Source of the DNA: Parcubacteria group bacterium Gr01-1014_17
Lineage (GTDB): Bacteria; Patescibacteriota; Minisyncoccia; Phycocordibacterales; UBA10002
Direction: 5' to 3'
DNA length: 52,042 nucleotides
Assembly: GCA_007376285.1 (NCBI GenBank)
Contig: VMFZ01000002.1
Coordinates: forward strand, 1-52,042
Of this stretch, positions 1,816 through 50,100 are shown piece after piece (within the stretch, counting starts at the first letter, position 1; every line of letters starts with the position of its first letter). Both the position numbers and the translations under genes were made by a program. The notes under the pieces were generated by a model. That model was not told the DNA's origin. It did not search any database and was given only the letters and a program-made list of their open reading frames with translations.

Positions 1816-2166
1816 TTATTTCTTAATTAAATCTCCAGGAAAAGAATAAAGCGAAGGTTTTTTAATGATGGTCTTGTAAACATTTTCCAGAAAATCACCG
1901 CCGGCATAGCCAATCACAAAAGCCAAGGCCGGAGTGAGTTGCGGCAAGCCGAAAAATGTCAAACCCAATTCTTTAATCGTCATTGCACTTAAAACACCAA
2001 CGATACCGGAAATAAACATCATTCCCAAAAAATACGGCAATTTGAACGGAACACTTTTGTAGGAATATTGGTGCTTGATAAAACCAACCAAGCCCCTGAC
2101 TGCTCCGCCGCCAAATCCAGCAATTAAAATTGATACATAGATTGATTCAAACATAGTTTTGCGCAT
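1816..2166 (-). CDS. Small membrane protein with ~3 TM segments (start possibly at 2154)
   Basis: Hydrophobic Gly-rich segments; follows the Bro-N gene after 9 nt. Confidence 0.7.
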   Translation of the reverse strand: MRKTMFESIYVSILIAGFGGGAVRGLVGFIKHQYSYKSVPFKLPYFLGMMFISGIVGVLSAMTIKELGLTFFGLPQLTPALAFVIGYAGGDFLENVYKTIIKKPSLYSFPGDLIKK

Positions 2167-2175
2167 TGTATCACA

Positions 2176-3054
2176 TCATCTTGAAATGCTATCCACATCC
2201 AATCGTTTTTTACCTTCTGGATTTTTCAAAAAGTTTTTCTTTGATACCACCGACCGTCCGAGCCGCTTTTCCAGCTTCTTTCTTGCTCCGCCGGCAATAT
2301 CGCCGCCGGCTTTGGCGTCGGCTTTCAATTTTGGTACGCCTCTTGAATTTTCATTGCGATGAATTTCTGTTGTGGCGCGTTCGCCGAGCATATTGAAAAT
2401 CAATTCAAAATCATCCATATGATCACGCAGATTCTCCCGCTTAAGACCTTTAAGTTTTTTGTACTCGCTTGGCGTAACTCCGAATGACGCTTTAGAAATT
2501 TCAGCGGTCAAAATTTCATAATCTCTCTGCTCTTCCGCGCCACGCTTCTGCCACTCATCCGTCAGCTCCTCACGAATCGCAATCCCGCGCATTCGTTTTT
2601 CTATCCAATCCTCGCTATAGCCCTTCAGCTTATATAATGTCCTTGTCCGCTTAGTTGCCAATTCGGGGTTCTCAATTTCCTGCACTCTTTCGTAGCCAAC
2701 TTTTGCGAGCCATCTCTTGAACGGTTCGGCTTTTGGCGAAGGAATTGATTGGATAATGCGAAAAACGCCTTCAGTGTTGGCGCAGTCGGTTTCGTATTTT
2801 TTGCCATCAGAGGATTCTAATTTCAGTTGTTTACAAATTGTAAATAACTGAATTCCATCTTCACTGTTTACTCGAGCTTTCATTGCACTCCAATAAACAC
2901 TTGGTTTAGCACTATCGGTAAGCGCCTCAACGACATCCACAATTGAAAACCACCACTCATTGTTATGAAGGATTTTTCTGATCTGCTTGCCCTTAAATAA
3001 AGCAATCTTTGTCGTTTCAAGATTATTAATTGATTCGTTCACGCCATCAATCAT
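2176..3054 (-). CDS. Bro-N domain / phage antirepressor-like DNA-binding protein
   Basis: WWFSIVDVVEAL..YW, RIIQSIPSPKAEPFKRWLA and LRDHMDDFELIF are typical of the Bro-N family. Confidence 0.85.
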   Translation of the reverse strand: MIDGVNESINNLETTKIALFKGKQIRKILHNNEWWFSIVDVVEALTDSAKPSVYWSAMKARVNSEDGIQLFTICKQLKLESSDGKKYETDCANTEGVFRIIQSIPSPKAEPFKRWLAKVGYERVQEIENPELATKRTRTLYKLKGYSEDWIEKRMRGIAIREELTDEWQKRGAEEQRDYEILTAEISKASFGVTPSEYKKLKGLKRENLRDHMDDFELIFNMLGERATTEIHRNENSRGVPKLKADAKAGGDIAGGARKKLEKRLGRSVVSKKNFLKNPEGKKRLDVDSISR

Positions 3055-3108
3055 ACTACATCTTACTTTGCGTTTCTAAGATTTCTTCAATGGCGTAATG
3101 CGGGGTGT

Positions 3109-3507
3109 TTATTTCAACATCACCTTCCCGCCCGCCACTTCTACATCTTTTTTCAGTTTTTCGGCGTCCTCTTTCTTCATATTTTCTTTCAGAACTTTCG
3201 GCGCCGCGTCTACCAAGTCCTTTGCGTCTTTGAGGCCCATCGCGAGCGCCTCTTTTACCACTTTAATAACCGCAATTTTGTTGGCGCCGCTGTCGGTCAA
3301 TTCCACGGTAAAGGCAGTCTTTTCCTCAGCTCCGACGCCCCCTGGGGTCGGAGCCCCGACCGCAAGCGTCGGGGCCGACGCAGACACACCGAACTTTTTC
3401 TCCAAAGTCCTCACGAGCTCGTTCAAATCAACCACCGACATTTGCTCAACGGCGTCAATAATTGCCTTGAACTTTGCCGGTATCTCTATGTTCTTATTTT
3501 CTTCCAT
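3109..3507 (-). CDS. rplL: 50S ribosomal protein L7/L12
   Basis: LEKKFGVSA, EEKTAFTVEL, KIAVIKVVKE..MGLKDAKDLVD. Confidence 0.98.
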   Translation of the reverse strand: MEENKNIEIPAKFKAIIDAVEQMSVVDLNELVRTLEKKFGVSASAPTLAVGAPTPGGVGAEEKTAFTVELTDSGANKIAVIKVVKEALAMGLKDAKDLVDAAPKVLKENMKKEDAEKLKKDVEVAGGKVMLK

Positions 3508-10711: not shown

Positions 10712-12766
10712 TTATTGTTCCTCTTCAATTTTCTTTCTGATATATTCTGCTTTTTCGTACTGCCCCACTCTCTCATACGAATCCGCAAGCCGGTTGTCTA
10801 AAAACATTGTTTCCCCAAAGATTTTCTTCATATACGCGTCGGCTTCAACATATTTGCGCGCGTACACGAGTGAAATAGCATATAACCGTTTGGATTCTAT
10901 GTCCTCGCCGTCGGGTAAGATGTCCGCGGCTTGTTTAAAGATTGTCACCGCTTTATCAAACTTTCCCATATTCAGAAAACTGGTTCCCCATTCATAAAGC
11001 GAGGGTTGTTTGTTCGGTGAAAGGGCTACTGCTTTTTCCAAAAACGGTACAGCGGCGGCATACTGCCGATAGGTGTTGAGCACCGTACCAAGCCGCAAAA
11101 GATATCGCGGGTCGCCGGGCGATTCTGCAATCTGCTGCGATAACTCTTGCGTAACTAATGAGACAATTTTAGCGCGCGATTCATCTTTAAGCGGTACACT
11201 AGAAACATCAACGGCAAATTGTGCGAGCATTTCGCGTGCTTCGGTGGTCGCAAATGTGTTGAGCGAGATGGCGCGGGTAAAATATCCGAGCCGCTCATCC
11301 AGATTGGGAGAGGGGCTCCGAAGCCCAAGATTAATGGCGTGCGCCGCAACGGCGGGTTTTGCGATGGTGAAATAAAAAATAATACTGGCTATAGCACAAA
11401 CCAAGAAAATAAAAAACATCCTCCGATTTTCGGAAGCTCCCCCTTTCAAGGGGGGTTGGGGGGATGTGATTGTGTATTCCGCGAAGCGTTTTTTTGACTC
11501 TGCATACGCCAAAAACGAGAAGAAAATTATTGACGATGTAACTGTATCAAAAGAAAAGATATTAAACGCGGCATATCCTGCAAACATTCCGGAAAGTGCG
11601 ACTTTTTCCCACGAGGAAAAAGCGGCAACGCGGCGACTCCAGACCGCGCGCGCGAGCCCAACCCAAAGCGCGAGGTACGCAAGCAAACCAATACCACCCG
11701 CCTGCACAAGCCAATCAAGATAAGTGTTGTGTGCGCGGTCAAACCATTGTTCCCGCCCATACAAGCGCGGGTCGTAATATTTCACAAAAACAGAGCGATA
11801 CCCTTCGGGACCCCAACCGAACAGCGAACGCTCTTTCGCCCCTTGAAGCGCAATCTTCCATGACAAAAACCGCGCTTCTGCATCTTGTCCGGTGAGTGAA
11901 ATAGAAAGAAGGCGGCCAAGCAATGGATGAGCCGTGGCAGAGGGAATCTGGCGCAAAGCAAAAAATAACCCAACAAAGAGCGCGAGCCCCGCGAGCGCTG
12001 CAATGCTAAACCGCTTTATACTCACACTTTCTTTACAAAGCAAAAATGCCGCGCTTCCGGATACAAAAAGCGCTACGGGAAGCGCGACAAACGCGCTTCT
12101 TGTTCCCGAAGCAAGTGCGAGAAAAACAAACAATGCGGAGCAGGTGGTATACATGAGACGCCGTCGCCGCACCATCTCACCTGAAGCGAGAAAGAGCCCG
12201 AGCCCAGCCGAAAGCAGCATATAAGCGGCAAAAAATGAAGGGTTACCGACGGTTGCATCAATACGCAACACTCCTTGGTGTGTAGGAAGAACACTCACAA
12301 GTTGAAGAAGTGCAATGACGGACACGATGATAGCCGTCCCGATGAAGGTGTTAAAAAAAATCTTCCAAGATTTTTCGTCTAATAAATGGGACGCAGAAAA
12401 GAAAAACGCTGCAAGAAAAAGCGCGCCCACTAATCCGTCCATCCGTTCAAGCGTTGACCAAAATGCCAAAGACGGATATGGCGCGAGCATGGTTGCACTA
12501 CCAATCAAAATTATAAATACAGACATCGCCCATACCAAAAACGAGGAACGCGGCCGAAAGCGCTCGGGCGACTGAACCCATAGCAAAATCCAGCACGCCA
12601 ATGCCATGAGTGCGAGTGCTCGAAAAAAGAAATTCCTACCGCTCGTATAGGGAAACAAAAAACCTAGGTACACCGCGAGCGGAGTAAGCGGAATCAAAAA
12701 CAGAACGCTGACACCAACACGCCGCGTCAACCAAGTCATAGTATTATGATGTGCGAAACCCAGCAT
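10712..12766 (-). CDS. O-antigen ligase (Wzy_C)-like oligosaccharyltransferase with C-terminal TPRs, paralog 1
   Basis: Multi-TM; RIDATVGNP, FGWGPEGY, DRAHNTYLD; TPR tail. Confidence 0.88.
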   Translation of the reverse strand: MLGFAHHNTMTWLTRRVGVSVLFLIPLTPLAVYLGFLFPYTSGRNFFFRALALMALACWILLWVQSPERFRPRSSFLVWAMSVFIILIGSATMLAPYPSLAFWSTLERMDGLVGALFLAAFFFSASHLLDEKSWKIFFNTFIGTAIIVSVIALLQLVSVLPTHQGVLRIDATVGNPSFFAAYMLLSAGLGLFLASGEMVRRRRLMYTTCSALFVFLALASGTRSAFVALPVALFVSGSAAFLLCKESVSIKRFSIAALAGLALFVGLFFALRQIPSATAHPLLGRLLSISLTGQDAEARFLSWKIALQGAKERSLFGWGPEGYRSVFVKYYDPRLYGREQWFDRAHNTYLDWLVQAGGIGLLAYLALWVGLARAVWSRRVAAFSSWEKVALSGMFAGYAAFNIFSFDTVTSSIIFFSFLAYAESKKRFAEYTITSPQPPLKGGASENRRMFFIFLVCAIASIIFYFTIAKPAVAAHAINLGLRSPSPNLDERLGYFTRAISLNTFATTEAREMLAQFAVDVSSVPLKDESRAKIVSLVTQELSQQIAESPGDPRYLLRLGTVLNTYRQYAAAVPFLEKAVALSPNKQPSLYEWGTSFLNMGKFDKAVTIFKQAADILPDGEDIESKRLYAISLVYARKYVEADAYMKKIFGETMFLDNRLADSYERVGQYEKAEYIRKKIEEEQ

Positions 12767-12771
12767 AAGAG

Positions 12772-14997
12772 CTATCTTTTTCTTCTCAATACACCGTTCG
12801 ACGATTGAATGATCTTTATCATACTGTCGGCATCGACTGCGTATTGAGGACTCTTTTTTAGACCTTCTTGTATTTCTTTTATTGCCATTTCTTCAGGATA
12901 TCCGGCGAAAAATAGCGCACCTCCGTAACGGATTTGTGCAAGACCATTATTCGGCTCTATTTTTAATAAGTTACGATATGTGTTAATTAACTCTTCGTCT
13001 TTACCTGCTTCAGTGTATGCCCGAATAATTCGTTCATCAACGACATAGGGGTCAGGGAACAATGGTGGAATTAACACTTTTTTAACTTCAGCTGTATTAC
13101 CGTTGTAGATAAGCCCAACTGCATAAATAATAGCGGCCTCGCGATTTTCCATATTCAACTCGTAGGCGGTTTTGAAGTACGGAACCGCTTCTTGCGCTCT
13201 TCCCACATTCAACCGATTGCCTCCAATTTGGAACAAAAGCGCTTGTTTGTGCGGTGACTGCGCAATGGCGGTCTGCCAATAGGGAAACGCTTGTTTATAC
13301 AACTTAAACGCATCAAGTAGTGACGCCAAAAGCGTGTAGTAGCGCGCATCCGCGGGGCGTTTCTTTATTTCCTTATCAATCTCGCTCGCCGCAACATTCA
13401 GAAACTCCTGCTTCACGGCAACGGGGACTTGTGAAAGTGGTGCTACCGCGGCGGTGACTTGCGCAAGTTGTTCACGAATTTCTGCGTTTGCAAAAGTATT
13501 CAATGCAAGCGCGCGGCGAAACAACGCAAGATTTTCCGAAGGACCTCCTTGGTGTGCGTGAAGCGCTTGCAAAAGCAAGGTACCGGCATACGCGGGACGC
13601 GCATTGAACCAGTACAAAGAAAATGAGAGCACCGCAATAATGGCCGGCGCGCAGGCGCGCGCGACGGCACTCTTTGATGCAAATACGCGCGAGTGAAAGA
13701 GGGGCGCAACTCCTTCCGTTGCACGCGAATAGACATACGCGAGCAACATAAAAAACAAAAAATAACTGGTACCGTTATCAAACACAAACACATTGTTCAC
13801 GGCGTATGCTGTTCCAAAGCCCGCAAAAAGCGCGCGCTCTGCGAAGTCGAAAAGCGGACGACCGCGCGGAGCTTTGGCGCGAAGTATAATTCGTGCGGCA
13901 AAAAACCAGAGCGCAAGATAACCAAAAATTCCAAAAATCCCCCCAGCAATCATCCAGTCAAGATAGGTATTGTGTGCACGGTCAAACCACGCTTCGCGGT
14001 GATACAAACGCGGGTCGTAGTGCTTGTTGAACACAAAATTAAACCCTTCTTGCCCCCAACCAAACAGCGGCCGCTCTGTAAATCCTTTCCACGAAATCTG
14101 CCATATCACAAAACGCGCTTGCGCGTCATCGTTCATTGGAGACGCGGAAAGAATACGACCGAATATCGGATGGTTGCGTAAGTAAGATACTTCCCGTGCC
14201 GTAAAGAATCCGCCGACGGCAAGAAGCGCAAGCACGCATCCCACCATGCCCACGCGCCGAAAGCGAGAAGAGACGCCGCGCGAAAATGCGATGAGCATGG
14301 ACCCTGCGACAAAACCGACAAATAACCCCAGGATTGCGCCGCGCGTTGCGGAAAGAAACACGAGCACCACATTGCCGAGCGCAATCGCCGAAAAACCACC
14401 GACCCACCATGCGTTCTTACCCGCCGTACGCGCATGGTATGCGGTAAGAAGAGCAAAAAAGAGGTGGAACAGCGCATACACGCCAAGGTATATCGCATTG
14501 CCGAAGGTCGCGTCTACACGCACGCCGCCCTGATTTATGTTCAGTACGCCGAAAAATTGAAGCAAAGAATAACCAATTATGAGTACATTTACGCAAAGCG
14601 ACGCGAGCACGAATGTGCGCCATTCTTTTGCGCGAAACATTGCGCCAGCGACGACAAAGTAGAGCGCGAAATGCGCGACGCCTATAAGCCCCTCCATTCG
14701 TTCAAAATTGGACCAGAAACTTTTGTACGGGTCCTCGGCAAGCAGTGTAGATACGCCGAGTGTTACAACAAAAAATAAAACACTCCACAAAAGAGCCGAG
14801 CGGCGCGGGCGATATTCCGGATTTCGGAATGAGAGGATGAGCCACGCGGCGAATGCAATTTCTGCGAGAATCCGAAACGCGAAATTTTTACCGCTAATAA
14901 AAGGGAAAAAAAGCGAATTGGAAACAAAAAGCGGCACAAACACCGCGGCAATAAGTGCGCCTAGAACCGTCCATCGTAATGCTTTATTAAAAGTCAT
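12772..14997 (-). CDS. O-antigen ligase (Wzy_C)-like oligosaccharyltransferase with C-terminal TPRs, paralog 2
   Basis: RVDATFGNA, FGWGQEGF, DRAHNTYLD; TPR tail. Confidence 0.88.
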   Translation of the reverse strand: MTFNKALRWTVLGALIAAVFVPLFVSNSLFFPFISGKNFAFRILAEIAFAAWLILSFRNPEYRPRRSALLWSVLFFVVTLGVSTLLAEDPYKSFWSNFERMEGLIGVAHFALYFVVAGAMFRAKEWRTFVLASLCVNVLIIGYSLLQFFGVLNINQGGVRVDATFGNAIYLGVYALFHLFFALLTAYHARTAGKNAWWVGGFSAIALGNVVLVFLSATRGAILGLFVGFVAGSMLIAFSRGVSSRFRRVGMVGCVLALLAVGGFFTAREVSYLRNHPIFGRILSASPMNDDAQARFVIWQISWKGFTERPLFGWGQEGFNFVFNKHYDPRLYHREAWFDRAHNTYLDWMIAGGIFGIFGYLALWFFAARIILRAKAPRGRPLFDFAERALFAGFGTAYAVNNVFVFDNGTSYFLFFMLLAYVYSRATEGVAPLFHSRVFASKSAVARACAPAIIAVLSFSLYWFNARPAYAGTLLLQALHAHQGGPSENLALFRRALALNTFANAEIREQLAQVTAAVAPLSQVPVAVKQEFLNVAASEIDKEIKKRPADARYYTLLASLLDAFKLYKQAFPYWQTAIAQSPHKQALLFQIGGNRLNVGRAQEAVPYFKTAYELNMENREAAIIYAVGLIYNGNTAEVKKVLIPPLFPDPYVVDERIIRAYTEAGKDEELINTYRNLLKIEPNNGLAQIRYGGALFFAGYPEEMAIKEIQEGLKKSPQYAVDADSMIKIIQSSNGVLRRKR

Positions 14998-37983: not shown

Positions 37984-40900
37984 CTACACTTTAATATCAA
38001 ACTTATAGAGATCTCCGCAGATTGAAGTTGTTTCGCCAACTGCAATCGAAACAAACTGAACATCTTTAAGCAATGCGGATTTTTTGAGTTCGCCAATAAA
38101 CTTTTCTACAAACGCCTTACCATCCGCGCTAGTGTCCACGATAAGCGTTGCTAAGTCGGAAATGGTCAATCCTTTCTTTTTGCGTAAATTCTGCACCGCA
38201 CGAACAAGTTCGCGAAAATTACCTTCTTCTTTGAGTTCTTGTGTTATTGTGGTATCTAATTCCACTTCTCCAGCAAGGGTTTTATCAAAGATTACCTCTT
38301 TTATATTTACTTCTTCTTGTATAAGGAGTAAGAATTCTGTGTGAATTTCTAATTTTTTAATTTTTAATTTTTGGAGAGGTTGTCGAATCTTTATATTCGC
38401 TTTCGCACGCGCTTCCAGTGCAAGTGACACTATTTTTCTCACTTCCTCCATTTTTTCTAGCACTCCAGTTTCCAATTTCCAGTTTCCAGTGTCTGGCCAA
38501 CTTTCAAGATGCACGCTTGGGACCGACAAAATCGGCACCAGATGTTTGAAGCCCCCAACATCTGGTGCCGTAAAAATAGACTGATACATCTCTTCCGCCA
38601 AAAACGGCATTATTGGGGCGATGAGTTTTGATAGAGATAGCAAGACCTCGCGCTGGGTCGCAAGCGCGTACTGCTTGTCTTGTTCGTTTTCGGACTTCAC
38701 CCGCGCCCGCGAACGGCGGATGTACCATGTGGAATAATCTTCTGTGAACGCGCGGATTTCACGGCACGCAGAGGGCGTATCATACACCTCCATTGCATTT
38801 GTGATTGTCTGCACAGCGCGCGCGAGGCGCGCGCGTATCCATACATCCAATATATGCATACTTTCTTCCGCGTGTGTTTTCCCGTTATACTTGTCTTTAT
38901 ATAACTCAAAAAACGAAAGACAGTTTCGTAGAATCCCCACCACGCGATTGTGCGCTTCGCGCACATCGTCATCGCGGAAACTCAAGTCCTCGCCCTGCAT
39001 CACCACACTTCCCATAAGGCACAACCGAAACGCGTCCGCGCCGTATTGGTCCATCAAAAGAAACGGGTCCGTGTAATTACCTTTTGATTTTGAGATTTTC
39101 GCGCCGTCTTCCGCTAAAATCGTACCGGTGGAAACCACTGCATTAAATGCGCGTCTGTTGGACAACAAAATACCAAGCGCGTGAAGGTAATAGAACCAAG
39201 TGCGCGTTTGGGCAATATATTCTGCAATAAAATCCGCCGGGTATTTCGCCGGCTTTGACGCAAACGGCATCGCCGCCGATTCCACCCAACAATCAACCAC
39301 TTCAGGAATGCGCTCGTATTCCCTTCCAGCTTCATCAACAAGAGTCAGCGTGTCTATCCACGGGCGGTGCAAATCAAGTTCATAGTCCTGATTGTGTGGG
39401 AAAAGTGCAAACTGAAGCACGAGCGTTTCTGCAAGCCCCAACATAACTCTGTCTGAAAACTGGTTAGACGGTTTACCTTCTGCAACTTGAGACAAAACCC
39501 ATAACGGACCGCCGTGTCCAACGATAAGAATTCTTTTATTTTGATAACGGCTCTCTATTTCAAACAAAAACTCGCCGACTCGCCGACGAACCTCTACAAG
39601 TGTCTGCTCGTTGCGTTCATGCAGGCGCTCGTCAACTATAACGGCGTTGTCCGGCAATCCGAGCTCTTTTTGAACAAGGAGAGCCGTCTCGCGCGTACGC
39701 ACAAACGGCGAGGTAATTATAAAATCAATTTTCTCGCGTTTAAGATTAGCAGCGGCATGCACCACACCCGCTTTTCCATTACCTGTCAGATGATTCTGCG
39801 GGTCTCCATACAAATCTTCTATGTTTTTAACATTATCAATCGCTTCGCCGTGCCGCATAATAAAATATTGATTGCCAGATTTTTTCACCAGATGTTTCAA
39901 TTCATCAAGTGAACCGACCACAATCACACGGCTACCTCCCTTCTCTTTCCAAATCGGCAACGGCGTCGCCCAAAAACGGTTACGCGAAATGTTCCAATCA
40001 GGAGCCCCTTCCACAATGTTTTTGAAACGACCGTGTTTCAAGTGTTCTGGCACCCACTGTATCTTTTCGTTTTCCGAAAGCATTTTCTTTTTTGCTTTTT
40101 GTATGGCGATGAACCACGACGGCACCGCGTTGTAAATCAAAGGCGTCCCACACCGATAGCAGTGCGGGTATTCGTGCGTGTTCAATGCGCGCGCAAAAAG
40201 CAATCCTCGTGTTTCCAAATCCGACTTTATTTCTTCCTCCGCATCCTTTACATACTTTCCGCGCAAAAACTCCGGTGCGTGTTCGTTGTACTTCGCGCTT
40301 GCATCAAGCAGTTGCACCATCGACAACCCTTCTTTCTGACCGAGCGCAAAATCATCTTCTCCATACATCACCGCCGTATGCACGATTCCCGTTCCTTCTT
40401 CCGTGTTAACAAAATCCGCTGCGTACACTTTGTATGATTTCTCCGACTTGAGCGCGGGTACTTCAAAAATCGGCTCGTATTCCAACCCAACCAACTTCTT
40501 TCCTTTTATTTCCTCTATTGTTTCGTACGCTTTCCCTTTAAAAACTTCGGCAAGTCGATCTTTTGCAAGAATAAAAAGATCGTTCTCGATTTTGACTTTC
40601 ACATAAACAATCTTCTCTCCCACTGCGAGCGCGACATTCCCCGGAAGCGTCCATGGCGTCGTCGTCCACGCAAGCAAATAAACATCCCCATTTAATCCAA
40701 TCTTCTCCGGTTTTTTGACCTTAAACTTTACCGTTACCGCTTCTTCCGTAATTTCTTTATAGGTATTGTCCATCGCAATCTCGGCTTTCGCCAAAGGCGT
40801 TTCGCAGTGCGGGCAATACATAAGCACCTTTTTTCCTTCATACAAAAGTTTTTTCTCGTGCAACTGTTTAAGCGCCCACCACACGCTCTCCATATATGAG

Positions 40901-41355
40901 TTGTCCATCGTCTTGTAGGAGTTTCCGAAATCCACGAATCGCCCCACGCGCTCCACATACTTTTCCCATTCTTTTTCAAACTCCAAAACGCTCGCGCGCG
41001 CCGCATTATTAAACGTGGCAATACCGATTTTCTCAATATCTTTTTTTGTTTTAAGCCCGAGCCGCTTTTCCACCAAGCTCTCAATCGGGAGCCCGTGGCA
41101 ATCCCACCCCCAACGCCTGGCCACGCGAAATCCGCACATTGTCTTGTAGCGTGGAATTACATCTTTAATCACGGAAGAAAGGAGCGAGCCATGATGCGGA
41201 AGCCCTGTCGCAAACGGCGGCCCATCATAAAACACAAAGTCGCCTTCAGGTGATTCCTTTTGCAAGGACTTCTCAAAAACCTTGTTTTCTTTCCAAAACT
41301 TCAATACTTCCCGTTCTTTGTCGGCAACCGTCTTTTTTTGTTGATTTCCATCCAT
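37984..41355 (-). CDS. ileS: Isoleucine--tRNA ligase (type 2) with inserted histidine phosphatase domain
   Basis: DGPPFATGLPHHGS, GWDCHGLP, WTTTPWTLP, GTGIVH, DWNISRNRFW, KISKS; internal RHGE domain. Confidence 0.96.
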   Translation of the reverse strand: MDGNQQKKTVADKEREVLKFWKENKVFEKSLQKESPEGDFVFYDGPPFATGLPHHGSLLSSVIKDVIPRYKTMCGFRVARRWGWDCHGLPIESLVEKRLGLKTKKDIEKIGIATFNNAARASVLEFEKEWEKYVERVGRFVDFGNSYKTMDNSYMESVWWALKQLHEKKLLYEGKKVLMYCPHCETPLAKAEIAMDNTYKEITEEAVTVKFKVKKPEKIGLNGDVYLLAWTTTPWTLPGNVALAVGEKIVYVKVKIENDLFILAKDRLAEVFKGKAYETIEEIKGKKLVGLEYEPIFEVPALKSEKSYKVYAADFVNTEEGTGIVHTAVMYGEDDFALGQKEGLSMVQLLDASAKYNEHAPEFLRGKYVKDAEEEIKSDLETRGLLFARALNTHEYPHCYRCGTPLIYNAVPSWFIAIQKAKKKMLSENEKIQWVPEHLKHGRFKNIVEGAPDWNISRNRFWATPLPIWKEKGGSRVIVVGSLDELKHLVKKSGNQYFIMRHGEAIDNVKNIEDLYGDPQNHLTGNGKAGVVHAAANLKREKIDFIITSPFVRTRETALLVQKELGLPDNAVIVDERLHERNEQTLVEVRRRVGEFLFEIESRYQNKRILIVGHGGPLWVLSQVAEGKPSNQFSDRVMLGLAETLVLQFALFPHNQDYELDLHRPWIDTLTLVDEAGREYERIPEVVDCWVESAAMPFASKPAKYPADFIAEYIAQTRTWFYYLHALGILLSNRRAFNAVVSTGTILAEDGAKISKSKGNYTDPFLLMDQYGADAFRLCLMGSVVMQGEDLSFRDDDVREAHNRVVGILRNCLSFFELYKDKYNGKTHAEESMHILDVWIRARLARAVQTITNAMEVYDTPSACREIRAFTEDYSTWYIRRSRARVKSENEQDKQYALATQREVLLSLSKLIAPIMPFLAEEMYQSIFTAPDVGGFKHLVPILSVPSVHLESWPDTGNWKLETGVLEKMEEVRKIVSLALEARAKANIKIRQPLQKLKIKKLEIHTEFLLLIQEEVNIKEVIFDKTLAGEVELDTTITQELKEEGNFRELVRAVQNLRKKKGLTISDLATLIVDTSADGKAFVEKFIGELKKSALLKDVQFVSIAVGETTSICGDLYKFDIKV

Positions 41356-45759: not shown

Positions 45760-46953
45760 CTATCTTCTTAACACCCTGTCAATTTTCCACGCAATCTCCC
45801 GAAAGTCCTTTTCTTTTTTTCCGCGCGTGGTTTCTGCGGCACTGCCGAGGCGTATTCCGGAGGGGTCCACGGGACTCCGTGTGTCAAAAGGAATTGTATT
45901 TTTGTTCACAATAATACCAGCTTTTTCCAGCCGCTCACTGGCATCCTTGCCAGTGAGCGACTGCCCTGAGCTTGTCGAAGGGCAGCCGCCCATCCACACA
46001 TCAACCAAGAGAAGATGGGAATCAGTACCGCCGCTTACAATGCGCCAATCAAGTTTCTTTAGTTCGTCCGCAAGTACTTGCGCATTTTTTATTACTTGCG
46101 CCGCGTACTTTCGAAACGCTGGCGTACTCGCCTCTTTAAGTGCAACTGCAACTGCTGCTATTTGATTGAGATGTGGACCACCTTGCATCCCTGGGAAAAC
46201 TGCTTTGTCTATTTTCTTATCTAACTCTCTATTATCTTTGCGAGAAAAAATCAAAGCTGCGCGCGGACCACGGAGTGTTTTGTGCACTGTAGTCGTTACA
46301 ACATCTGCGTACAGAAACGGGCTCGGATATACCCCTCCAGCTACCAGCCCTCCAGTGTGCGACATATCTACCATTAAATACGCACTGCATGAATCAGCTA
46401 TTTCGCGGAACTTTTTGAAATCAATCGTACGCGAATACGCGGTAAAACCTGCGACAATGAGTGCGGGCTTTTCGCGTGTGGCAATATCTTTTAACTCTTC
46501 GTAATCCAGCGTTTCTGTATTTTGAGCAACGCCGTACGGAACTTGTTGCCACATCTTTCCGGAAATAGAGACCTTATGCCCATGCGTCAGATGCCCACCG
46601 TGCGCGAGCGACATTCCCATAATTTTTCCTCCTTGCGGAACAAGCGCGAGATACACCGCAACATTTGCCGGCGAGCCGGAAAGCGGCTGGACATTCACGC
46701 TCCATTCGCTCGGAGAAAGTTTAAAAAGTTTGAGCGCGCGCTCTTTTGCAAGATTTTCTATTTTATCCATCACCTTATTTCCGCCATAATACCGCGCCCC
46801 CGGATACCCTTCGGCATACTTATTCGTCAGCTCGCTCCCGAGCGCCTCAAGCACATCTTTGGACACATAATTTTCCGACGCGATAAGATTAATGACGCTT
46901 TTCTGTCGTTTCTTCTCGGCATCTATGAGTTTTTTGATTTGAATGTCTTTCAT
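45760..46953 (-). CDS. glyA: Serine hydroxymethyltransferase
   Basis: LIASENY, NKYAEGYPG.RYYGG, GGHLTHG, TTTVHKTLRGPR. Confidence 0.98.
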   Translation of the reverse strand: MKDIQIKKLIDAEKKRQKSVINLIASENYVSKDVLEALGSELTNKYAEGYPGARYYGGNKVMDKIENLAKERALKLFKLSPSEWSVNVQPLSGSPANVAVYLALVPQGGKIMGMSLAHGGHLTHGHKVSISGKMWQQVPYGVAQNTETLDYEELKDIATREKPALIVAGFTAYSRTIDFKKFREIADSCSAYLMVDMSHTGGLVAGGVYPSPFLYADVVTTTVHKTLRGPRAALIFSRKDNRELDKKIDKAVFPGMQGGPHLNQIAAVAVALKEASTPAFRKYAAQVIKNAQVLADELKKLDWRIVSGGTDSHLLLVDVWMGGCPSTSSGQSLTGKDASERLEKAGIIVNKNTIPFDTRSPVDPSGIRLGSAAETTRGKKEKDFREIAWKIDRVLRR

Positions 46954-46956
46954 AGT

Positions 46957-47592
46957 TTATATAATATATTTTTTCAGTTCTGCGGCAAGCGCTTTGGTTA
47001 CTGTGTCAAATTGTGGGTTTGCATCAATTGTAGAGTGCGGGACTTGTTTAAAAAAATCCAGAAGCCCGCGGCGCATTCGTGTGTGAAATTGCACATCGCG
47101 TTCGTCAAAATGGTTGAGTTTTTCTCCTGTTTGTTGTTGTTTGCGCGACAAACCAACGCGCGGCTTCACATCAAGGAAAAAATAACGGGCTGGCACATAC
47201 TTTCCTAAATAAAACCGACGCATCTCCCAGAAAAAGCCCTTGAGTTCGGATGCCTTTTGCGCAAAAATCTGGTACGCATAAGTAGACGAATCAAACCGGT
47301 CTACAAGAACATTTTGCCCTCGCGCGAGAGCCGGAATAATAGTATTTTTCAAATGGTCTGCCCGCGCCGCCCAAAACAAAGCGAAGTGTGTCTTGGCGTC
47401 CGCCTGTCCTGCATTTTTTGAATTAAGAATAATGGAACGAATCTCTTCGGCGTACGGAGAACCGCCCGGCTCGCGTGTAATTAAAACGCGCACACCAAAA
47501 TACTCTTGAATCTTGCGTATTTGAGTGCTTTTCCCTGAACCCTCGCCGCCTTCTAGAACAAAAAATTTGCCTTTTTTATTTTTCATAATCAC
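46957..47592 (-). CDS. tmk: Thymidylate kinase
   Basis: EGGEGSGKSTQ, TREPGG, DRFDSSTYAYQ. Confidence 0.95.
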   Translation of the reverse strand: MIMKNKKGKFFVLEGGEGSGKSTQIRKIQEYFGVRVLITREPGGSPYAEEIRSIILNSKNAGQADAKTHFALFWAARADHLKNTIIPALARGQNVLVDRFDSSTYAYQIFAQKASELKGFFWEMRRFYLGKYVPARYFFLDVKPRVGLSRKQQQTGEKLNHFDERDVQFHTRMRRGLLDFFKQVPHSTIDANPQFDTVTKALAAELKKYII

Positions 47593-48044
47593 CTTTTTGT
47601 ATTAAAGAGCTTTTCACTTCCTTCAAGAAGATACACATTTTTTATGCCGGCGGCAAGCATCGCGTCCCAGCACGGCTTACAACACCACCAGTGGCCGTAT
47701 AAATATAAATCTGCGCCACGAGTATCTTCGCCATGCGAAATGGCATCTTCAAGCGCTTTCGGTTCGCTGTGATTTTTCGGATTGCATCCTTCGCAAAGGT
47801 CATAGCGCTCTCCTGTTGGAATGCGCTGGCGCACCCGCTCACAGCCGTGCTCTTGGTGATACCTATTGCCGTTTGCGCCCTGTCCTATAATGCGTCCATT
47901 CTTTACCACGACACTGCCGGTTTTCTGAAAATCATCCAATGAATGCGCGAGTGCATACTCATGCGCAGCGCGCATAAATTGGTTGTCCGCAGAAACATAT
48001 TCAACAGTTCGCCCTTCCGGAAGATATGGGTATTGAATGGCCAT
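47589..48044 (-). CDS. dCMP-deaminase-like zinc deaminase (start probably MAIQYP)
   Basis: GSVVVKNGRIIGQGAN, CER..PTGERYDLC, HSE, CKPC, AGIKNVY. Confidence 0.85.
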   Translation of the reverse strand: MAIQYPYLPEGRTVEYVSADNQFMRAAHEYALAHSLDDFQKTGSVVVKNGRIIGQGANGNRYHQEHGCERVRQRIPTGERYDLCEGCNPKNHSEPKALEDAISHGEDTRGADLYLYGHWWCCKPCWDAMLAAGIKNVYLLEGSEKLFNTKR

Positions 48045-48072
48045 AAGAAACAGCATATAGTATAAAATCACT

Positions 48073-48909
48073 ATGACAAAATTTGATGGGATTTATCAGG
48101 ATATGATTCGGCGCATTATGCTCGGAGGCATTGCAGAAGTGAACCAGCGAACTCGCCACGAAACGCGCGCCATCCCAGGTATGCACTTTTCCGTAGATAT
48201 TGAAAAAGATGGCTTCCCACTCATAACACTTCGCAAAATACCGATTCAGATGTTTGTCGCGGAACAATTATGGTTTATTTCTGGCAGCCGCAAGCCCGAA
48301 GATTTCCTCCGCGAGTTCACCAAAATCTGGGACGACTTCACCAATCCCGGCGATGTCGTAACGGTTGCCTATGGCTACCGGTGGCGGAAGCATTTCGGGC
48401 GTGACCAGTTGGGACTGCTTGTTAAACTTCTTGAAAAAGACCACAGCTCGCGACATGGCGTTGTGGTGGCGTGGGACCCATCTGGCGACGGGCTCGGCGG
48501 CGTGGTAAAGAAAAATGTGCCATGCCCATATACATTTACAGTTAATATAATCGGTGATCGGCTTAATCTACATAATATTATTCGTTCGAACGATATCATA
48601 CTTGGAACGCCATCGGATGTTGCCGGTTTCGCTCTCCTCCAATGCATCCTTGCGCAACGATTGGGAGTAAAGCCCGGCATTTATAGCCATTCAATTTCCA
48701 ACGCGCACATTTACGACACGCACTATTTTGCCGCAGAAGAAATCTTGCGTAGGAGCAATGAACATAAAAGAATAATCCTAAACCTTCCGCTAAAAACATT
48801 TGGGCGCGCGGAAAAGAAAGACCGGAAATTAGTTAAAGAAATTGTTGAAAATCTACAAATCCAATACCACCCACTTGAACCAATCAAAGGAATTAAAATT
48901 GTGCTATAA
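48073..48909 (+). CDS. thyA: Thymidylate-synthase-family protein with a dCMP-type Asp at the specificity site
   Basis: FPLITLRK, YGYRWR, DQL, PC151, RSND, D182 (Asn177 equivalent), AHIY. Confidence 0.88.
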   Translation: MTKFDGIYQDMIRRIMLGGIAEVNQRTRHETRAIPGMHFSVDIEKDGFPLITLRKIPIQMFVAEQLWFISGSRKPEDFLREFTKIWDDFTNPGDVVTVAYGYRWRKHFGRDQLGLLVKLLEKDHSSRHGVVVAWDPSGDGLGGVVKKNVPCPYTFTVNIIGDRLNLHNIIRSNDIILGTPSDVAGFALLQCILAQRLGVKPGIYSHSISNAHIYDTHYFAAEEILRRSNEHKRIILNLPLKTFGRAEKKDRKLVKEIVENLQIQYHPLEPIKGIKIVL

Positions 48910-48917
48910 CATAATCT

Positions 48918-49550
48918 ATGGCGATACTGACCAAAAAAGGAATTCTTGAACGCGTTGCAAAAAAAGAAATCGGTTTCTCGCCGAATCTTGACACATTCCA
49001 GCTACAAGACCACGCGGTTGACTTGCGGCTCGGCTTCACCTTTCTCATTCCAAAAATTTGGCATCTTACAGAAAAAGGGCGCGAGTCGTTGGATATTCTC
49101 AATTTTGATAAAGTGAATGCGGAATATTTTGAGGTGGTAGAGCTTGAGCATGGGCAATATTTTGACCTCTTGCCGCACGAATATGTGCTCGTGGTTACAC
49201 TTGAATCAATAAAAGTGCCGAACGATTTGATGGCGGTTTTATACCCTCGCTCGTCTACCAACCGCAAAGGACTCTCGCTGGACCTCACCGGCATCATTGA
49301 TTCCGGCTATGAAGGTCAACTAACGCTTCCAATACGAAATAACACGGCATCGCAAATCGTGCGACTCTACCCTGGGGAACGGCTGTGCCAAGTCGTATTT
49401 GAAGAACTCACCGAGCCCGTGAGTCCGCAAAAGAGCAAGTACCATAAGCGCGACATTATAGAGGGCATCAAACGGGAAAAAGCGATTGAGTCGCGCCTTA
49501 TATTAAAGGGAGATATAAAAAAACTGAAAGCGGAACATGCGGTAAAATAA
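48918..49550 (+). CDS. dcd: dCTP deaminase/dUTPase-family protein lacking the catalytic Glu
   Basis: VDLRLG, RSSTNRKGL, IDSGYEG, LYPGERLCQ; P138 in place of Glu. Confidence 0.85.
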   Translation: MAILTKKGILERVAKKEIGFSPNLDTFQLQDHAVDLRLGFTFLIPKIWHLTEKGRESLDILNFDKVNAEYFEVVELEHGQYFDLLPHEYVLVVTLESIKVPNDLMAVLYPRSSTNRKGLSLDLTGIIDSGYEGQLTLPIRNNTASQIVRLYPGERLCQVVFEELTEPVSPQKSKYHKRDIIEGIKREKAIESRLILKGDIKKLKAEHAVK

Positions 49551-49554
49551 CTTC

Positions 49555-50100
49555 GTGCAAGCAAAAATCAGTATTATAGTTGCAGTCGGAAAAAACAACC
49601 GCGCTATCGGGAAAACGGGTGCGCTCCTTTGGCGCATTTCGGACGACCTAAGGCGTTTCAAAGAGCTCACGACCGGACATCCGATTATTATGGGCCGCAA
49701 GACCTTTGAATCCATCGGCAAGGCACTCCCGAACCGCACAAACATAGTTATAACGCGCAATCCCGATTTTAAACATGCCCGCCGAGGAGGCGTGGCGGAA
49801 GGAGTAATTGTCGCGTCATCGTTGGAGAATGCGATTGGTCTCGCAAGGTCGGACCTTGAATCGGGAAAAAGGTCCGACCTTAAAGACCCTGAAATCTTTA
49901 TTATTGGCGGGGGAGAAATTTACCAGCAAGCGCTTCCGCTTGCCGACAAACTTTATCTCACGCTCGTAGAAAGCGACGCCGAGGGCGACACTTTTTTCCC
50001 CGACTGGCGTAATGACTTTACGAAAGAGGTCTTCCGCGAAGAGCGCATCGACCCCAAAACCGGACTGAAATATGTGTGGGTTGATTTGGAACGCGCGTAA
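49555..50100 (+). CDS. folA: Dihydrofolate reductase
   Basis: LLWRISDDLRRFKELT, IMGRKTFESI, LPNRTNIVITR, IIGGGEIY, GDTFFP. Confidence 0.96.
   Translation: MQAKISIIVAVGKNNRAIGKTGALLWRISDDLRRFKELTTGHPIIMGRKTFESIGKALPNRTNIVITRNPDFKHARRGGVAEGVIVASSLENAIGLARSDLESGKRSDLKDPEIFIIGGGEIYQQALPLADKLYLTLVESDAEGDTFFPDWRNDFTKEVFREERIDPKTGLKYVWVDLERA

What the first reader, a model, noticed from the sequence alone, without database searches (positions are those of the whole stretch)
49245..49340. Dcd homolog lacks the deaminase Glu but keeps the dUTPase-type Asp motif
Seen: RSSTNR..IDSGYEGQLTLP138IRN versus E. coli RSSLAR..IDPGWSGCIVLE138FYN. Established: Glu138 is required for deamination, and the family shares the trimeric dUTPase fold. 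Inference: a dCTP or 5m-dCTP pyrophosphatase that feeds dCMP to the pathway or removes 5m-dCTP.
Basis: partly seen in the sequence, partly recalled or inferred. Interest (0 to 1): 0.75.

Follow-up and report, generated by a model that had tools for sequence, protein, structure and literature searches.

The report
Deaminase-dead dCTP deaminase homolog in Paceibacteria
A conserved relative of dCTP deaminase in a group of tiny uncultured bacteria has lost the residue needed to deaminate and probably just clips dCTP to dCMP, feeding an unusual, phage-like route to the DNA base thymine.

Summary
Window 48918-49550 (+) encodes a 210-aa Dcd-family protein (TIGR02274 118 bits, cutoff 92.8). Pro138 sits exactly where E. 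coli Dcd has catalytic Glu138. Ser112, Arg116 and Asp128 (the equivalent of E. coli Dut Asp90) are kept.

The Pro is not a one-off. It is present in 198 of 198 members of a monophyletic, Patescibacteria-wide subfamily.

The gene lies in a conserved deoxypyrimidine cluster:
- A thymidylate-synthase homolog lies upstream on the same strand in 76 of 80 related loci. It has Asp at the E. coli Asn177 position in 77 of 77, and its best phage matches are the Xp12/PaMx74 dCMP-methylase type.
- A divergent dCMP-deaminase-family gene is present in 72 of 80 loci.
- DHFR, Tmk and SHMT also occur.
- A canonical Dut is present in 25 of 80 loci, so the protein is unlikely to be merely the cell's dUTPase.

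Best reading (about 0.5, inferred, not assayed): a deamination-dead dCTP, possibly also 5-methyl-dCTP, diphosphatase that supplies dCMP. Rivals are a Dcd-like dUTPase as in archaea, a 5-methyl-dCTP sanitiser, a non-catalytic nucleotide sensor, and a residual deaminase.

It is a new variant of a known kind, and I found nothing in print on it.

The parts
48918..49550 (+). Dcd-family gene, 210 aa, of the Pro138 subfamily ('DcdP')
   Evidence: ORF list. Pfam DCD PF22769 116.4 bits. TIGR02274 118.1 bits against a cutoff of 92.8. AlphaFold2 model mean pLDDT 83.4, with best Foldseek matches to E. coli Dcd and Mtb/B. halodurans Dcd:Dut.
49245..49340 (+). Active-site segment P110-N141: PRSSTNR, a shortened loop LDLT-G, IDSGYEG, and LTLP138IRN
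   Evidence: Translation. Alignments to PDB chains and to E. coli Dcd and Dut.
49329..49331 (+). Codon of Pro138, at the position of the catalytic Glu138 of E. coli Dcd
   Evidence: Pro in 198 of 198 subfamily members.
49299..49301 (+). Codon of Asp128, equivalent to E. coli Dcd D128 and E. coli Dut D90
   Evidence: Alignment A4 and numbering. Asp in 195 of 198 subfamily members, Glu in 2, Asn in 1.
49455..49547 (+). C-terminal extension of about 30 residues (180-210) specific to the subfamily. It is predicted as two helices and replaces the Dcd 'Q-G-x-x-x-S' tail.
   Evidence: Alignments A1 and A4. Model helices 180-196 and 200-206 at pLDDT 55-73. E191 and G198 are conserved in 81 of 81.
48073..48909 (+). 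Thymidylate-synthase homolog with Asp182 at the E. coli ThyA Asn177 position and Pro after the catalytic Cys. It is a likely dCMP methylase and ends 8 bases before DcdP.
   Evidence: Pfam. PDB alignment 'psDva' versus 'pfNia'. Column check against E. coli ThyA, Xp12 and PaMx74. Asp in 77 of 77. Best phage matches are Xp12/PaMx74-type.
47589..48071 (-). Divergently transcribed, divergent member of the dCMP/cytidine deaminase family, with HSE and CxxC zinc motifs
   Evidence: Pfam PF00383 45.1 bits. Weak PDB match to S. mutans dCMP deaminase 2hvv, E=3e-4. A relative is found in 72 of 80 related loci, and it is adjacent and divergent to the TS homolog in 69 of those 72.
49555..50100 (+). Dihydrofolate reductase, starting 4 bases after DcdP
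   Evidence: Pfam DHFR_1 167.9 bits. Spacing.
46957..47592 (-). dTMP kinase
   Evidence: TIGR00041 130.3 bits against a cutoff of 83.25.
45760..46953 (-). Serine hydroxymethyltransferase
   Evidence: Pfam SHMT 536 bits.

Best explanation
The gene encodes a trimeric-dUTPase-fold enzyme that descends from bacterial dCTP deaminases or bifunctional dCTP deaminase-dUTPases. It has lost deamination (Glu138 to Pro) and kept the nucleotide-binding and water-activating residues.

It most likely binds dCTP and hydrolyses it to dCMP plus pyrophosphate, and may also accept 5-methyl-dCTP. The dCMP goes to the product of the gene just upstream, a thymidylate-synthase homolog of the Xp12 dCMP-methylase type, and/or to the adjacent dCMP-deaminase-family enzyme. 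Cytosine deoxynucleotides are thereby drained towards dTMP: dCTP -> dCMP -> 5-methyl-dCMP -> dTMP -> dTDP. DHFR and SHMT recycle the folate.

Shown here:
- loss of the Glu;
- conservation of the other active-site residues;
- the fold;
- the gene context and its conservation.

Inferred:
- hydrolysis and substrate choice;
- the order of the pathway steps.
For: 1. Family and fold. TIGR02274 scores 118.1 bits (cutoff 92.8) and Pfam DCD 116.4 bits. The model has pLDDT 83.4, and its best matches are E. coli Dcd and the Mtb and B. halodurans Dcd:Dut enzymes.
2. Closest solved relatives. The subfamily profile scores highest against the bifunctional enzyme 4xjc (93.3 bits) and Mtb Dcd:Dut (79.8). E. 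coli Dcd follows at 75.0, archaeal dUTPase P45 at 59.7 and E. coli Dut at 52.1.
3. Active-site conservation in 198 subfamily members: Pro138 in 198, R111 in 198, S112 in 192, R116 in 195, D128 in 195 and N141 in 198. This pattern fits an active nucleotide-binding enzyme.
4. One origin. In a 106-row tree, the Pro rows lie on one side of a branch with SH-like support 94.
5. Context in 80 related Patescibacteria loci:
   - a TS homolog lies upstream on the same strand in 76 and is directly adjacent in 51;
   - it has Asp at the Asn177 position in 77 of 77;
   - a deaminase is present in 72 and SHMT in 60.
6. The TS homolog is of the dCMP-methylase type. It scores 159-161 bits against the Xp12 and PaMx74 enzymes and 88 bits against E. 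coli ThyA. It shares their Asp at position 177 and Pro at position 147.
7. Experimental precedent. Passages of bioRxiv 10.1101/2024.12.05.627091 report that the Xp12 enzyme and 5 of 7 other Asp-type homologs made 5-methyl-dC. They also report that linked deaminases give thymidine nucleotides.
8. Analogous phage module. Xp12 and PaMx74 place a PRA-PH/MazG-type pyrophosphohydrolase directly upstream of TS-deaminase-DHFR. This is the analogous slot.
9. A separate Dut. A canonical Dut lies within 5 kb in 25 of 80 loci. The one in L022 passes the NCBIfam equivalog cutoffs, at 145.6 against 103. A second, plain dUTPase is therefore not obviously needed.
10. Locus L030. It has ThyX, a more typical dCMP deaminase and DcdP, but no Asp-type TS. 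A dCTP -> dCMP -> dUMP -> dTMP route would still use a dCTP diphosphatase there.
Against: - No activity was or could be measured here.
- The kept Asp128 is also present in monofunctional E. coli Dcd, which does not hydrolyse, so it proves nothing by itself.
- Known Dcd-fold enzymes that lack the Glu are archaeal dUTPases: P45 (9ln0) has Met there, and T. pacificus 8y1w belongs to the same group.
- The C-terminal lid differs from that of Dcd and Dut. There is no Gly-rich motif V and no 'QGxxxS' tail. Hydrolysis could therefore be impaired.
- All known dedicated dCTP diphosphatases that I checked have a different, all-alpha fold: T4 gp56 and the Xp12 PRA-PH protein.
- ThyX lies in the same cluster in 5 loci, and in L030. 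The Asp-type TS is therefore not always the only route to dTMP, and a dUMP-supplying role cannot be excluded.
- Mycobacteria carry Dut and Dcd:Dut together (abstract of PMC5519681). Redundancy with Dut is therefore not impossible.
- The window itself holds no canonical Dut in its 52 kb.
Confidence: 0.5

Rival explanations
1. It is a Dcd-like dUTPase, as in Thermococcales and Sulfolobales. It hydrolyses dUTP to dUMP for sanitation and to supply a thymidylate synthase.
For: - Archaeal Dcd-fold dUTPases lack the Glu and keep the RSSxxR motif. P45 (9ln0) reads RSSLAR ... LTLMLYN.
- The query shows Dut-like details: IDSGY with Tyr at +3 of the Asp, found in 192 of 198 members.
- In L030 the gene sits beside ThyX, which uses dUMP.
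- ThyX lies in the cluster in 5 more loci.
Against: - A canonical Dut is encoded within 5 kb in 25 of 80 loci, and one of them passes the equivalog cutoffs.
- The protein scores far below the cutoffs of the dUTPase models: NF002598 47.3 against 130, and TIGR00576 43.5 against 102.55.
- The subfamily profile is closer to bacterial Dcd and Dcd:Dut than to P45.
- The gene is strictly linked to an Asp-type, dCMP-directed TS homolog, in 77 of 77.
Confidence: 0.15
2. It is a house-cleaning 5-methyl-dCTP diphosphatase. It returns 5-methyl-dCTP, formed by stray phosphorylation of the pathway intermediate 5-methyl-dCMP, to the monophosphate, so that 5-methylcytosine does not enter DNA.
For: - The upstream TS homolog is of the dCMP-methylase type, so 5-methyl-dCMP is the expected intermediate (passages).
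- The loop that covers the base in Dcd ('HxTAG') is one residue shorter and lacks the Ala in the subfamily ('LDLT-G').
- The A115F change of that Ala inactivates Mtb Dcd:Dut (PMC5519681 Table 1 passage). A remodelled pocket at C5 is therefore conceivable. This last step is inference.
Against: - There is no structural or biochemical test of a C5-methyl pocket. The model coordinates could not be inspected, because no file was available.
- The gene is kept in L030, where no Asp-type TS is nearby.
- It is equally compatible with a broad dCTP/5-methyl-dCTP enzyme.
Confidence: 0.15
3. It is a catalytically silent nucleotide-binding subunit. It would sense dCTP or dTTP and regulate or scaffold the neighbouring enzymes.
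For: - The catalytic Glu is lost.
- The C-terminal lid is replaced by a conserved helical extension of unknown role (E191 and G198 in 81 of 81).
- From recall, Dcd enzymes bind dTTP in the active site as an inhibitor. PDB titles show dTTP complexes.
Against: The water-activating Asp128 and the phosphate-binding Arg and Ser residues are nearly invariant. That is more than binding alone would need. No partner contact was tested.
Confidence: 0.1
4. It is still a dCTP deaminase, with another acidic residue taking over from Glu138, for example the Asp/Glu at position 122.
For: - Residue 122 is acidic in 186 of 198 members. It replaces the His of the Dcd 'HxTAG' loop near the base.
- Ser112 and Arg116 of the deaminase site are kept.
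Against: - Position 122 is not invariant: it is N, A, Q or G in 11 of 198, with one row outside the six residues that one search listed.
- Pro cannot activate water.
- PDB titles list E138A E. coli Dcd with intact dCTP bound (1xs4), which fits a dead deaminase. That E138A is inactive is recalled.
- The cluster already has a separate deaminase.
Confidence: 0.05

Closest known systems
[quoted passage not shown]
   Same: - It is the best sequence and profile match among solved structures: 76.6 bits for the single protein and 93.3 for the subfamily profile.
- It has the same fold.
- It shares the RSSxxR motif, the Asp of (I/V)D-x-G-(F/Y), the N141 equivalent and the 'KY' of the C-terminal arm.
- It takes dCTP and releases a monophosphate plus pyrophosphate.
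   Different: - The catalytic Glu is Pro.
- The Gly before RSS is Pro.
- The 'HxTAG' loop is one residue shorter.
- The C-terminal tail is replaced by a helical extension of about 30 residues.
- The expected product is dCMP, not dUMP. This is inferred.
Escherichia coli dCTP deaminase Dcd (PDB 1xs1, 1xs4)
   Same: It is the top Foldseek match (E=2.1e-14, TM 0.69/0.75). The family model TIGR02274 is passed. Ser111, Arg115 and Asp128 equivalents are present.
   Different: Glu138 is replaced by Pro, so deamination is not expected. His121 and Ala124 of the loop are absent.
Archaeal Dcd-like dUTPases (Pyrococcus P45, PDB 9ln0/9ln3; Thermococcus pacificus 8y1w; Sulfolobus tokodaii 2zdc)
   Same: These are Dcd-fold enzymes that lack the deaminase Glu (Met in P45), keep RSSxxR and the Asp, and are pure diphosphatases.
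   Different: - They score lower: 50.8 bits, or 59.7 with the profile.
- The family model NF002598 is not passed (47.3 against 130).
- They are about 155 aa long and lack the C-terminal extension.
- Their substrate is dUTP, whereas here a separate canonical Dut often sits in the same cluster.
The deoxycytidylate module of 5-methylcytosine phages Xp12 and PaMx74: PRA-PH/MazG-type pyrophosphohydrolase, dCMP methylase (TS homolog), dCMP-family deaminase, DHFR
   Same: - It has the same set of activities in one gene cluster.
- Its TS homolog is the closest phage relative of the window's TS (33-35% identity) and shares the Asp and Pro substitutions.
- A nucleotide pyrophosphohydrolase sits next to the TS gene.
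   Different: - The phage hydrolase has an unrelated all-alpha fold.
- The phage deaminase is not detectably close to the window's (E=0.054 in a single comparison).
- The window is a cellular chromosome with ribosomal, aminoacyl-tRNA synthetase and RecA genes.
- Whether cellular DNA carries 5-methylcytosine in place of C is unknown.
Phage T4 gp56 dCTPase/dUTPase and MazG/DCTPP1-type dCTP diphosphatases
   Same: They carry out the proposed reaction, dCTP to dCMP plus pyrophosphate. In T4 the role is to feed a TS-family dCMP-modifying enzyme, according to the annotation note.
   Different: There is no homology: BLASTP gives E=0.71, and gp56 matches Pfam dUTPase_2. This is a resemblance in function only.

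Membership tests
dCTP deaminase, Dcd (TIGR02274 / Pfam PF22769) | Sequence matches the family model above its curated cutoff | tested here: met
   TIGR02274 118.1 bits against a cutoff of 92.8. PF22769 116.4 bits against a cutoff of 27.
dCTP deaminase, Dcd (TIGR02274 / Pfam PF22769) | Catalytic Glu (E. coli Glu138) that activates the deaminating water | tested here: not met
   Pro138 aligns with the Glu. Pro in 198 of 198 subfamily members.
dCTP deaminase, Dcd (TIGR02274 / Pfam PF22769) | Ser111 and Arg115 of the RSSxxR motif | tested here: met
   RSSTNR at 111-116. S112 in 192 of 198 and R116 in 195 of 198.
dCTP deaminase, Dcd (TIGR02274 / Pfam PF22769) | 'HxTAG' loop over the base (E. coli His121 to Ala124) | tested here: not met
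   The query reads LDLT-G, one residue shorter, with Asp/Glu in place of the His.
dCTP deaminase, Dcd (TIGR02274 / Pfam PF22769) | Ammonia release from dCTP | not testable with these tools
   This needs an enzyme assay.
[quoted passage not shown] | Both the deaminase Glu and the conserved Asp of the (I/V)D-x-G motif in one active site | tested here: not met
   The Asp is present (D128) and the Glu is absent.
Trimeric dUTPase, Dut (TIGR00576 / NF001862 / PF00692) | Match to the family model above cutoff | tested here: not met
   TIGR00576 43.5 against 102.55. NF001862 41.1 against 103. The general Pfam dUTPase domain is matched (53.3 bits, cutoff 22).
Trimeric dUTPase, Dut (TIGR00576 / NF001862 / PF00692) | Catalytic Asp of motif III (E. 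coli Dut Asp90) | tested here: met
   D128 aligns with E. coli Dut D90. Its role is taken from a passage of PMC5519681.
Trimeric dUTPase, Dut (TIGR00576 / NF001862 / PF00692) | Gly-rich C-terminal motif V (the need for it is stated in a passage of PMC5519681; the consensus is recalled) | tested here: not met
   The query C-terminus reads SKYHKRD followed by helices, where E. coli Dut ends in a Gly-rich tail.
Archaeal Dcd-like dUTPase (NF002598; P45 type) | Match to the family model above cutoff | tested here: not met
   47.3 bits against a cutoff of 130.
Archaeal Dcd-like dUTPase (NF002598; P45 type) | Strict dUTP hydrolysis | not testable with these tools
   This needs an enzyme assay.
All-alpha dCTP diphosphatases (T4 gp56, MazG/PRA-PH, DCTPP1) | All-alpha NTP-pyrophosphohydrolase fold (Pfam dUTPase_2 / PRA-PH) | tested here: not met
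   The query has the beta-rich Dcd fold. gp56 matches dUTPase_2 and shows no similarity to the query. Xp12 gp60 matches PRA-PH.

The most novel reading that the evidence does not exclude
Paceibacteria, a large group of Patescibacteria, run a cellular version of the Xp12-phage pathway that bypasses uracil nucleotides:
- dCTP is cut to dCMP by this Dcd-fold enzyme, which would be the first dedicated dCTP diphosphatase of that fold;
- dCMP is methylated to 5-methyl-dCMP by the Asp-type thymidylate-synthase homolog;
- 5-methyl-dCMP is deaminated to dTMP by the adjacent deaminase.
A further possibility is that part of the 5-methyl-dC pool is built into the cell's DNA at replication.
Probability: 0.33. 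Interest if true: 0.85.

Novelty: new variant of a known kind. Interest (0 to 1): 0.68.

Why it matters
- **Enzymology.** If the reading holds, the dUTPase/Dcd fold has a fourth catalytic outcome, dCTP to dCMP, beside dUTPase, dCTP deaminase and the bifunctional enzyme. It would have arisen by loss of one residue.
- **Metabolism.** A major bacterial radiation would make thymidylate by methylating cytosine first and deaminating afterwards. That route has so far been proposed only for phages with 5-methylcytosine DNA (passages of bioRxiv 10.1101/2024.12.05.627091).
- **Annotation.** 229 species representatives in the genome collection encode a relative, and the source names seen call the protein 'dCTP deaminase'. 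That name, and 'thymidylate synthase' for the neighbour, would be wrong. Metabolic reconstructions of these reduced genomes would need correcting.
- **A testable question.** The cluster raises the question of whether any cellular organism incorporates 5-methyl-dCTP at replication.

Tried and rejected
- **T4 gp56.** I recalled the T4 gp56 dCTPase as a Dcd relative. This was wrong. The fetched protein shows no similarity (BLASTP E=0.71) and matches Pfam dUTPase_2.
- **Catalytic Asp of Dut.** Numbering of the fetched protein puts Asp90 on the first Asp, the one that aligns with D128.
- **Phage and archaeal-virus relatives.** The four I fetched and aligned all carry Glu: PhiF1, HVTV-1, HJTV-2 and Pseudomonas phage SM1. 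These are 4 of the 349 matching records. The 'thymidylate synthase' next to the HJTV-2 gene does not align with the window's TS (17% identity). It drew only one weak match (L078) when used as a ThyX query. No Pro-type phage copy was seen.
- **Paper search by PDB code.** The search for 9LN0, 9LN3 and 8Y1W returned only materials-science papers.
- **Related-loci search.** It was repeated with the closer alignment A2.
- **Cluster look-up.** The look-up of the sources of ten distant members could not be made, because the service was switched off. A homolog search with P0135 found only itself.
- **Window deaminase versus Xp12 deaminase.** No significant similarity.
- **Model coordinates.** No model file was among the files on the script machine. 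No pocket geometry was measured.
- **Literature.** Searches found no paper on this subfamily or on a dCMP-methylase route in Patescibacteria.
  - One search returned 0 papers.
  - One search found 4 papers, of which 3 were listed. I saw only the titles and the starts of the abstracts, which concern viral ecology.
Full report
**1. What is at the coordinates**

Window 48918-49550 (+) is an intact 210-codon ORF. Bases 49245-49340 encode residues 110-141, PRSSTNRKGLSLDLTGIIDSGYEGQLTLPIRN.

The protein matches these models:

| Model | Bits | Cutoff |
|---|---|---|
| Pfam DCD (PF22769) | 116.4 | 27 |
| NCBIfam dCTP deaminase equivalog TIGR02274 | 118.1 | 92.8 |
| Archaeal dUTPase NF002598 | 47.3 | 130 |
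| Dut TIGR00576 | 43.5 | 102.55 |
| Dut NF001862 | 41.1 | 103 |

An AlphaFold2 model built on 18 subfamily sequences has mean pLDDT 83.4. Its best Foldseek matches in the PDB are E. coli Dcd, M. tuberculosis Dcd:Dut and B. halodurans Dcd:Dut. The archaeal Dcd-like dUTPases (T. pacificus 8y1w, Pyrococcus P45 9ln0) and the ordinary Duts rank lower.

**2.

- In HMMER alignments, the query 'LTLPIRN' lies over 'ITLELFN' of 4xjc and 'ITLELSN' of the M. tuberculosis enzyme.
- In a MAFFT alignment with E. coli Dcd fetched from the K-12 record, it lies over 'IVLEFYN'.
- Direct numbering of the fetched E. coli protein gives Glu138, R110-S-S-L-A-R115 and I127-D128. The query Pro is also residue 138.
- The Ser and Arg of RSSxxR are kept.
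- Asp128 aligns with E. coli Dut Asp90. A passage of PMC5519681 describes that residue as the catalytic aspartate coordinating the catalytic water.

The caveat is that the monofunctional E. coli deaminase has the same Asp, so its presence allows hydrolysis but does not demonstrate it.

**3. It is a conserved subfamily, not an accident**

- All 120 listed close homologs (69-100% identity; those with a source name are Taylorbacteria, Liptonbacteria, Paceibacterota or 'Patescibacteria group') carry the Pro.
- Of the 150 listed representatives of 50%-identity clusters, 27 carry Pro. These are also the highest-scoring ones. Nearly all others have Glu.
- The Pro rows share further changes. 'PRSSxNR' replaces 'GRSSxGR'. 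A one-residue-shorter loop, 'L(D/E)LT-G', replaces 'HxTAG'. There is usually 'GY' after the Asp. A conserved helical C-terminal extension of about 30 residues is added.
- A FastTree tree was built from 106 of the 151 rows. I dropped 45 rows that were shorter than 150 aa, longer than 260 aa, or gapped at the key columns. It puts all 21 Pro rows, plus one Arg row and one Asp row, on one side of a branch with SH-like support 94. One origin is therefore not contradicted.
- A second, distant subclade, reached from P0129, also has Pro in 59 of 60 rows. The exception is the outlier at E=7e-11.
- Pooled over 198 members: Pro138 198, R111 198, N141 198, G133 198, R116 195, D128 195, S113 194, S112 192, Tyr131 192, and acidic residue 122 in 186.

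Such conservation of the phosphate-binding and water-activating residues fits an enzyme that still binds and probably cleaves a nucleotide.

**4. Surroundings**

The window is cellular. It holds RecA, FtsK, SSB, EF-P, five aminoacyl-tRNA synthetases, L11, NusG and S6.

Around the gene lies a compact deoxypyrimidine cluster:

| Gene | Coordinates | Strand | Note |
|---|---|---|---|
| SHMT | 45760-46953 | - | |
| dTMP kinase | 46957-47592 | - | |
| dCMP-deaminase-family gene | 47589-48071 | - | divergent in sequence |
| Thymidylate-synthase homolog | 48073-48909 | + | ends 8 bases before DcdP |
| DcdP | 48918-49550 | + | |
| DHFR | 49555-50100 | + | starts 4 bases after DcdP |

The best 80 loci, all Patescibacteria MAGs by their titles, were kept with up to 5 kb of flank.

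In those 80 loci:
- A TS homolog lies upstream on the same strand in 76. It is directly adjacent in 51, separated by a detected DHFR in 8, and separated by a gap of 360-1050 bases in 17.
- Of the four misses, three are at contig ends (L002, L010, L054). The fourth is L030.
- The deaminase is found in 72, and is adjacent and divergent to TS in 69 of those.
- SHMT is found in 60, DHFR in 34 and Tmk in 30. The DHFR figure is an undercount, because the L022 DHFR escaped the BLAST threshold.

**5. The neighbouring 'thymidylate synthase' is of the dCMP-methylase type**

- Its 'GTPSDVAGFA' aligns with 'GLPFNIASYA' of ThyA. Asp182 therefore replaces E. coli Asn177, and Pro replaces His147 after the catalytic Cys.
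- The Asp is present in 77 of 77 copies.
- Among 3162 phage records with a TS homolog, the 40 best rows are Xp12-, PaMx74-, PaMx28- and AAT-1-like phages and their kin.
- By BLASTP the window's protein scores 159-161 bits against the Xp12 and PaMx74 enzymes, and 88 bits against E. coli ThyA. It shares long motifs with them: AYGYRWR.HFGRDQ, AWDP..DGLG and NVPCP.
- Passages of bioRxiv 10.1101/2024.12.05.627091 (passages only, supplements closed) state several points:
  - Asp at the N177 position predicts dCMP use.
  - The Xp12 enzyme and 5 of 7 tested homologs produced 5-methyl-dC in E. coli.
  - Xp12 and PaMx74 replace C by 5mC.
  - A linked deaminase of the dCMP-deaminase family converts 5-methyl-dCTP to dTTP.
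- In Xp12 and PaMx74 the gene order is PRA-PH-type pyrophosphohydrolase, TS homolog, deaminase, DHFR.

The window's cluster holds the same four activities, with the Dcd-fold protein in the pyrophosphohydrolase role. That N177D switches ThyA to dCMP is established knowledge (Liu and Santi 1992, Hardy and Nalivaika 1992). I recalled the latter reference, and the preprint passage cites the former.

**6. Not simply the cell's dUTPase**

- A full-length canonical Dut homolog lies within 5 kb of DcdP in 25 of 80 loci, usually right after the deaminase gene. The L022 copy passes the Dut equivalog cutoffs: TIGR00576 153.1 against 102.55, and NF001862 145.6 against 103. The window itself has no canonical Dut in its 52 kb.
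- ThyX is part of the cluster in L078 (fused to Tmk), L071, L062, L075 and L055.
- In L030, which lacks the Asp-type TS, DcdP sits next to a ThyX and a more typical dCMP deaminase.

These cases cut both ways. They show that dUMP-based thymidylate synthesis exists in some of these genomes, which keeps the dUTPase rival alive. They also show that a dCTP -> dCMP step would still be useful there, by feeding a dCMP deaminase.

**7. Mechanism proposed**

Shown:
- The Dcd fold.
- Loss of the only residue that can activate the deaminating water.
- Retention of Arg111, Ser112, Ser113 and Arg116, and of Asp128.
- Closest solved relatives are enzymes that take dCTP, two of which also hydrolyse it to the monophosphate.

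Inferred:
- The ancestor was a bifunctional Dcd:Dut-like enzyme.
- Loss of the Glu left the diphosphatase half, so that dCTP is released as dCMP.
- The product goes to the Asp-type TS, giving 5-methyl-dCMP with DHF recycled by DHFR and SHMT. It then goes to the deaminase (giving dTMP) and to Tmk.
- The shortened base-covering loop and the acidic residue 122 may adapt the pocket to an undeaminated, or 5-methylated, cytosine. This is speculation.

I put about 0.5 on 'dCTP, possibly also 5-methyl-dCTP, diphosphatase'. The rivals are a dUTPase at 0.15, a 5-methyl-dCTP-specific sanitiser at 0.15, a silent sensor at 0.1 and a residual deaminase at 0.05.

**8. Comparison with what is known, and novelty**

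The protein passes the Dcd family model but fails two defining features, the Glu and the HxTAG loop. It should therefore not be filed as a dCTP deaminase.
- It works most like the hydrolase half of Dcd:Dut.
- Among Glu-less relatives it is most like the archaeal P45-type dUTPases, from which it is phylogenetically and contextually distinct.
- The dedicated dCTP diphosphatases that I checked have another fold: T4 gp56, and the PRA-PH/MazG type of Xp12 (passages of PMC13326640).

My searches found no paper describing this subfamily or a dCMP-methylase route in Patescibacteria. One search returned 0 papers. None of the 15 papers listed holds 'dCTP deaminase'. One search found 4 papers, of which I saw the listing of 3. 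Searches were also searched.

I rate it a new variant of a known kind.

**9. What stayed unchecked**

- Whole genomes could not be surveyed for ThyA, ThyX, Dut or the type of ribonucleotide reductase.
- The cluster look-up for the sources of distant members was unavailable.
- The model's coordinates could not be examined.
- No tool offers dCTP or dUTP as a ligand.

Noticed in passing
window 48073-48909 (+): The gene annotated by family as thymidylate synthase has Asp at the E. coli Asn177 position and Pro at the His147 position. It is closer to the dCMP methylases of the 5-methylcytosine phages Xp12 and PaMx74 than to E. coli ThyA. The Asp is conserved in 77 of 77 copies next to DcdP.
   Followed up: yes
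window 47589-48071 (-): This dCMP-deaminase-family gene is very divergent: PF00383 45 bits, and best PDB match E=3e-4. It carries an extra Cys-rich insert. Its longest ORF starts 1 base from the TS start codon, so the true start is probably an internal Met. Whether it prefers 5-methyl-dCMP is unknown.
   Followed up: partly
L022 3202-3669 (-), and 24 other related loci: A canonical Dut gene sits inside the same cluster in 25 of 80 related loci. L022 also has a Nudix/MutT-like gene (1672-2142) and an unassigned 141-aa gene (2774-3199) between Tmk and Dut. The window has no canonical Dut.
   Followed up: partly
L078 732-3044 (-); also L071, L062, L075, L055: L078 encodes a 770-aa fusion of thymidylate kinase (residues 11-205) with a flavin-dependent thymidylate synthase ThyX domain (284-498). 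It lies directly beside the deaminase / Asp-type TS / DHFR / DcdP genes. These genomes would then have two different thymidylate-synthase-type enzymes in one cluster.
   Followed up: partly
L030 2937-5633: This is the one related locus with full flanks but no Asp-type TS. There DcdP (Pro kept) lies next to a ThyX and a more typical dCMP deaminase (PF00383 77 bits).
   Followed up: partly
window 37984-41355 (-): A 1123-aa class I aminoacyl-tRNA synthetase (tRNA-synt_1 plus Anticodon_1) has a histidine-phosphatase domain (His_Phos_1, residues about 498-582) inserted within the catalytic domain.
   Followed up: no
window 10712-14997 (-): Two adjacent large paralogous proteins (684 and 741 aa) combine an O-antigen-ligase (Wzy_C) domain with C-terminal TPR repeats. 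A 271-aa TPR protein follows them.
   Followed up: no
window 1049-3054 (-): An NYN-domain protein and a Bro-N-domain protein lie side by side near the window start. Bro-N is typical of phage and mobile elements, so this may be a remnant of one.
   Followed up: no
window 49455-49547 (+): The C-terminal extension specific to the Pro subfamily is predicted as two helices, and E191 and G198 are invariant in 81 of 81. It has no counterpart in Dcd, Dcd:Dut or Dut, and no assigned role.
   Followed up: partly
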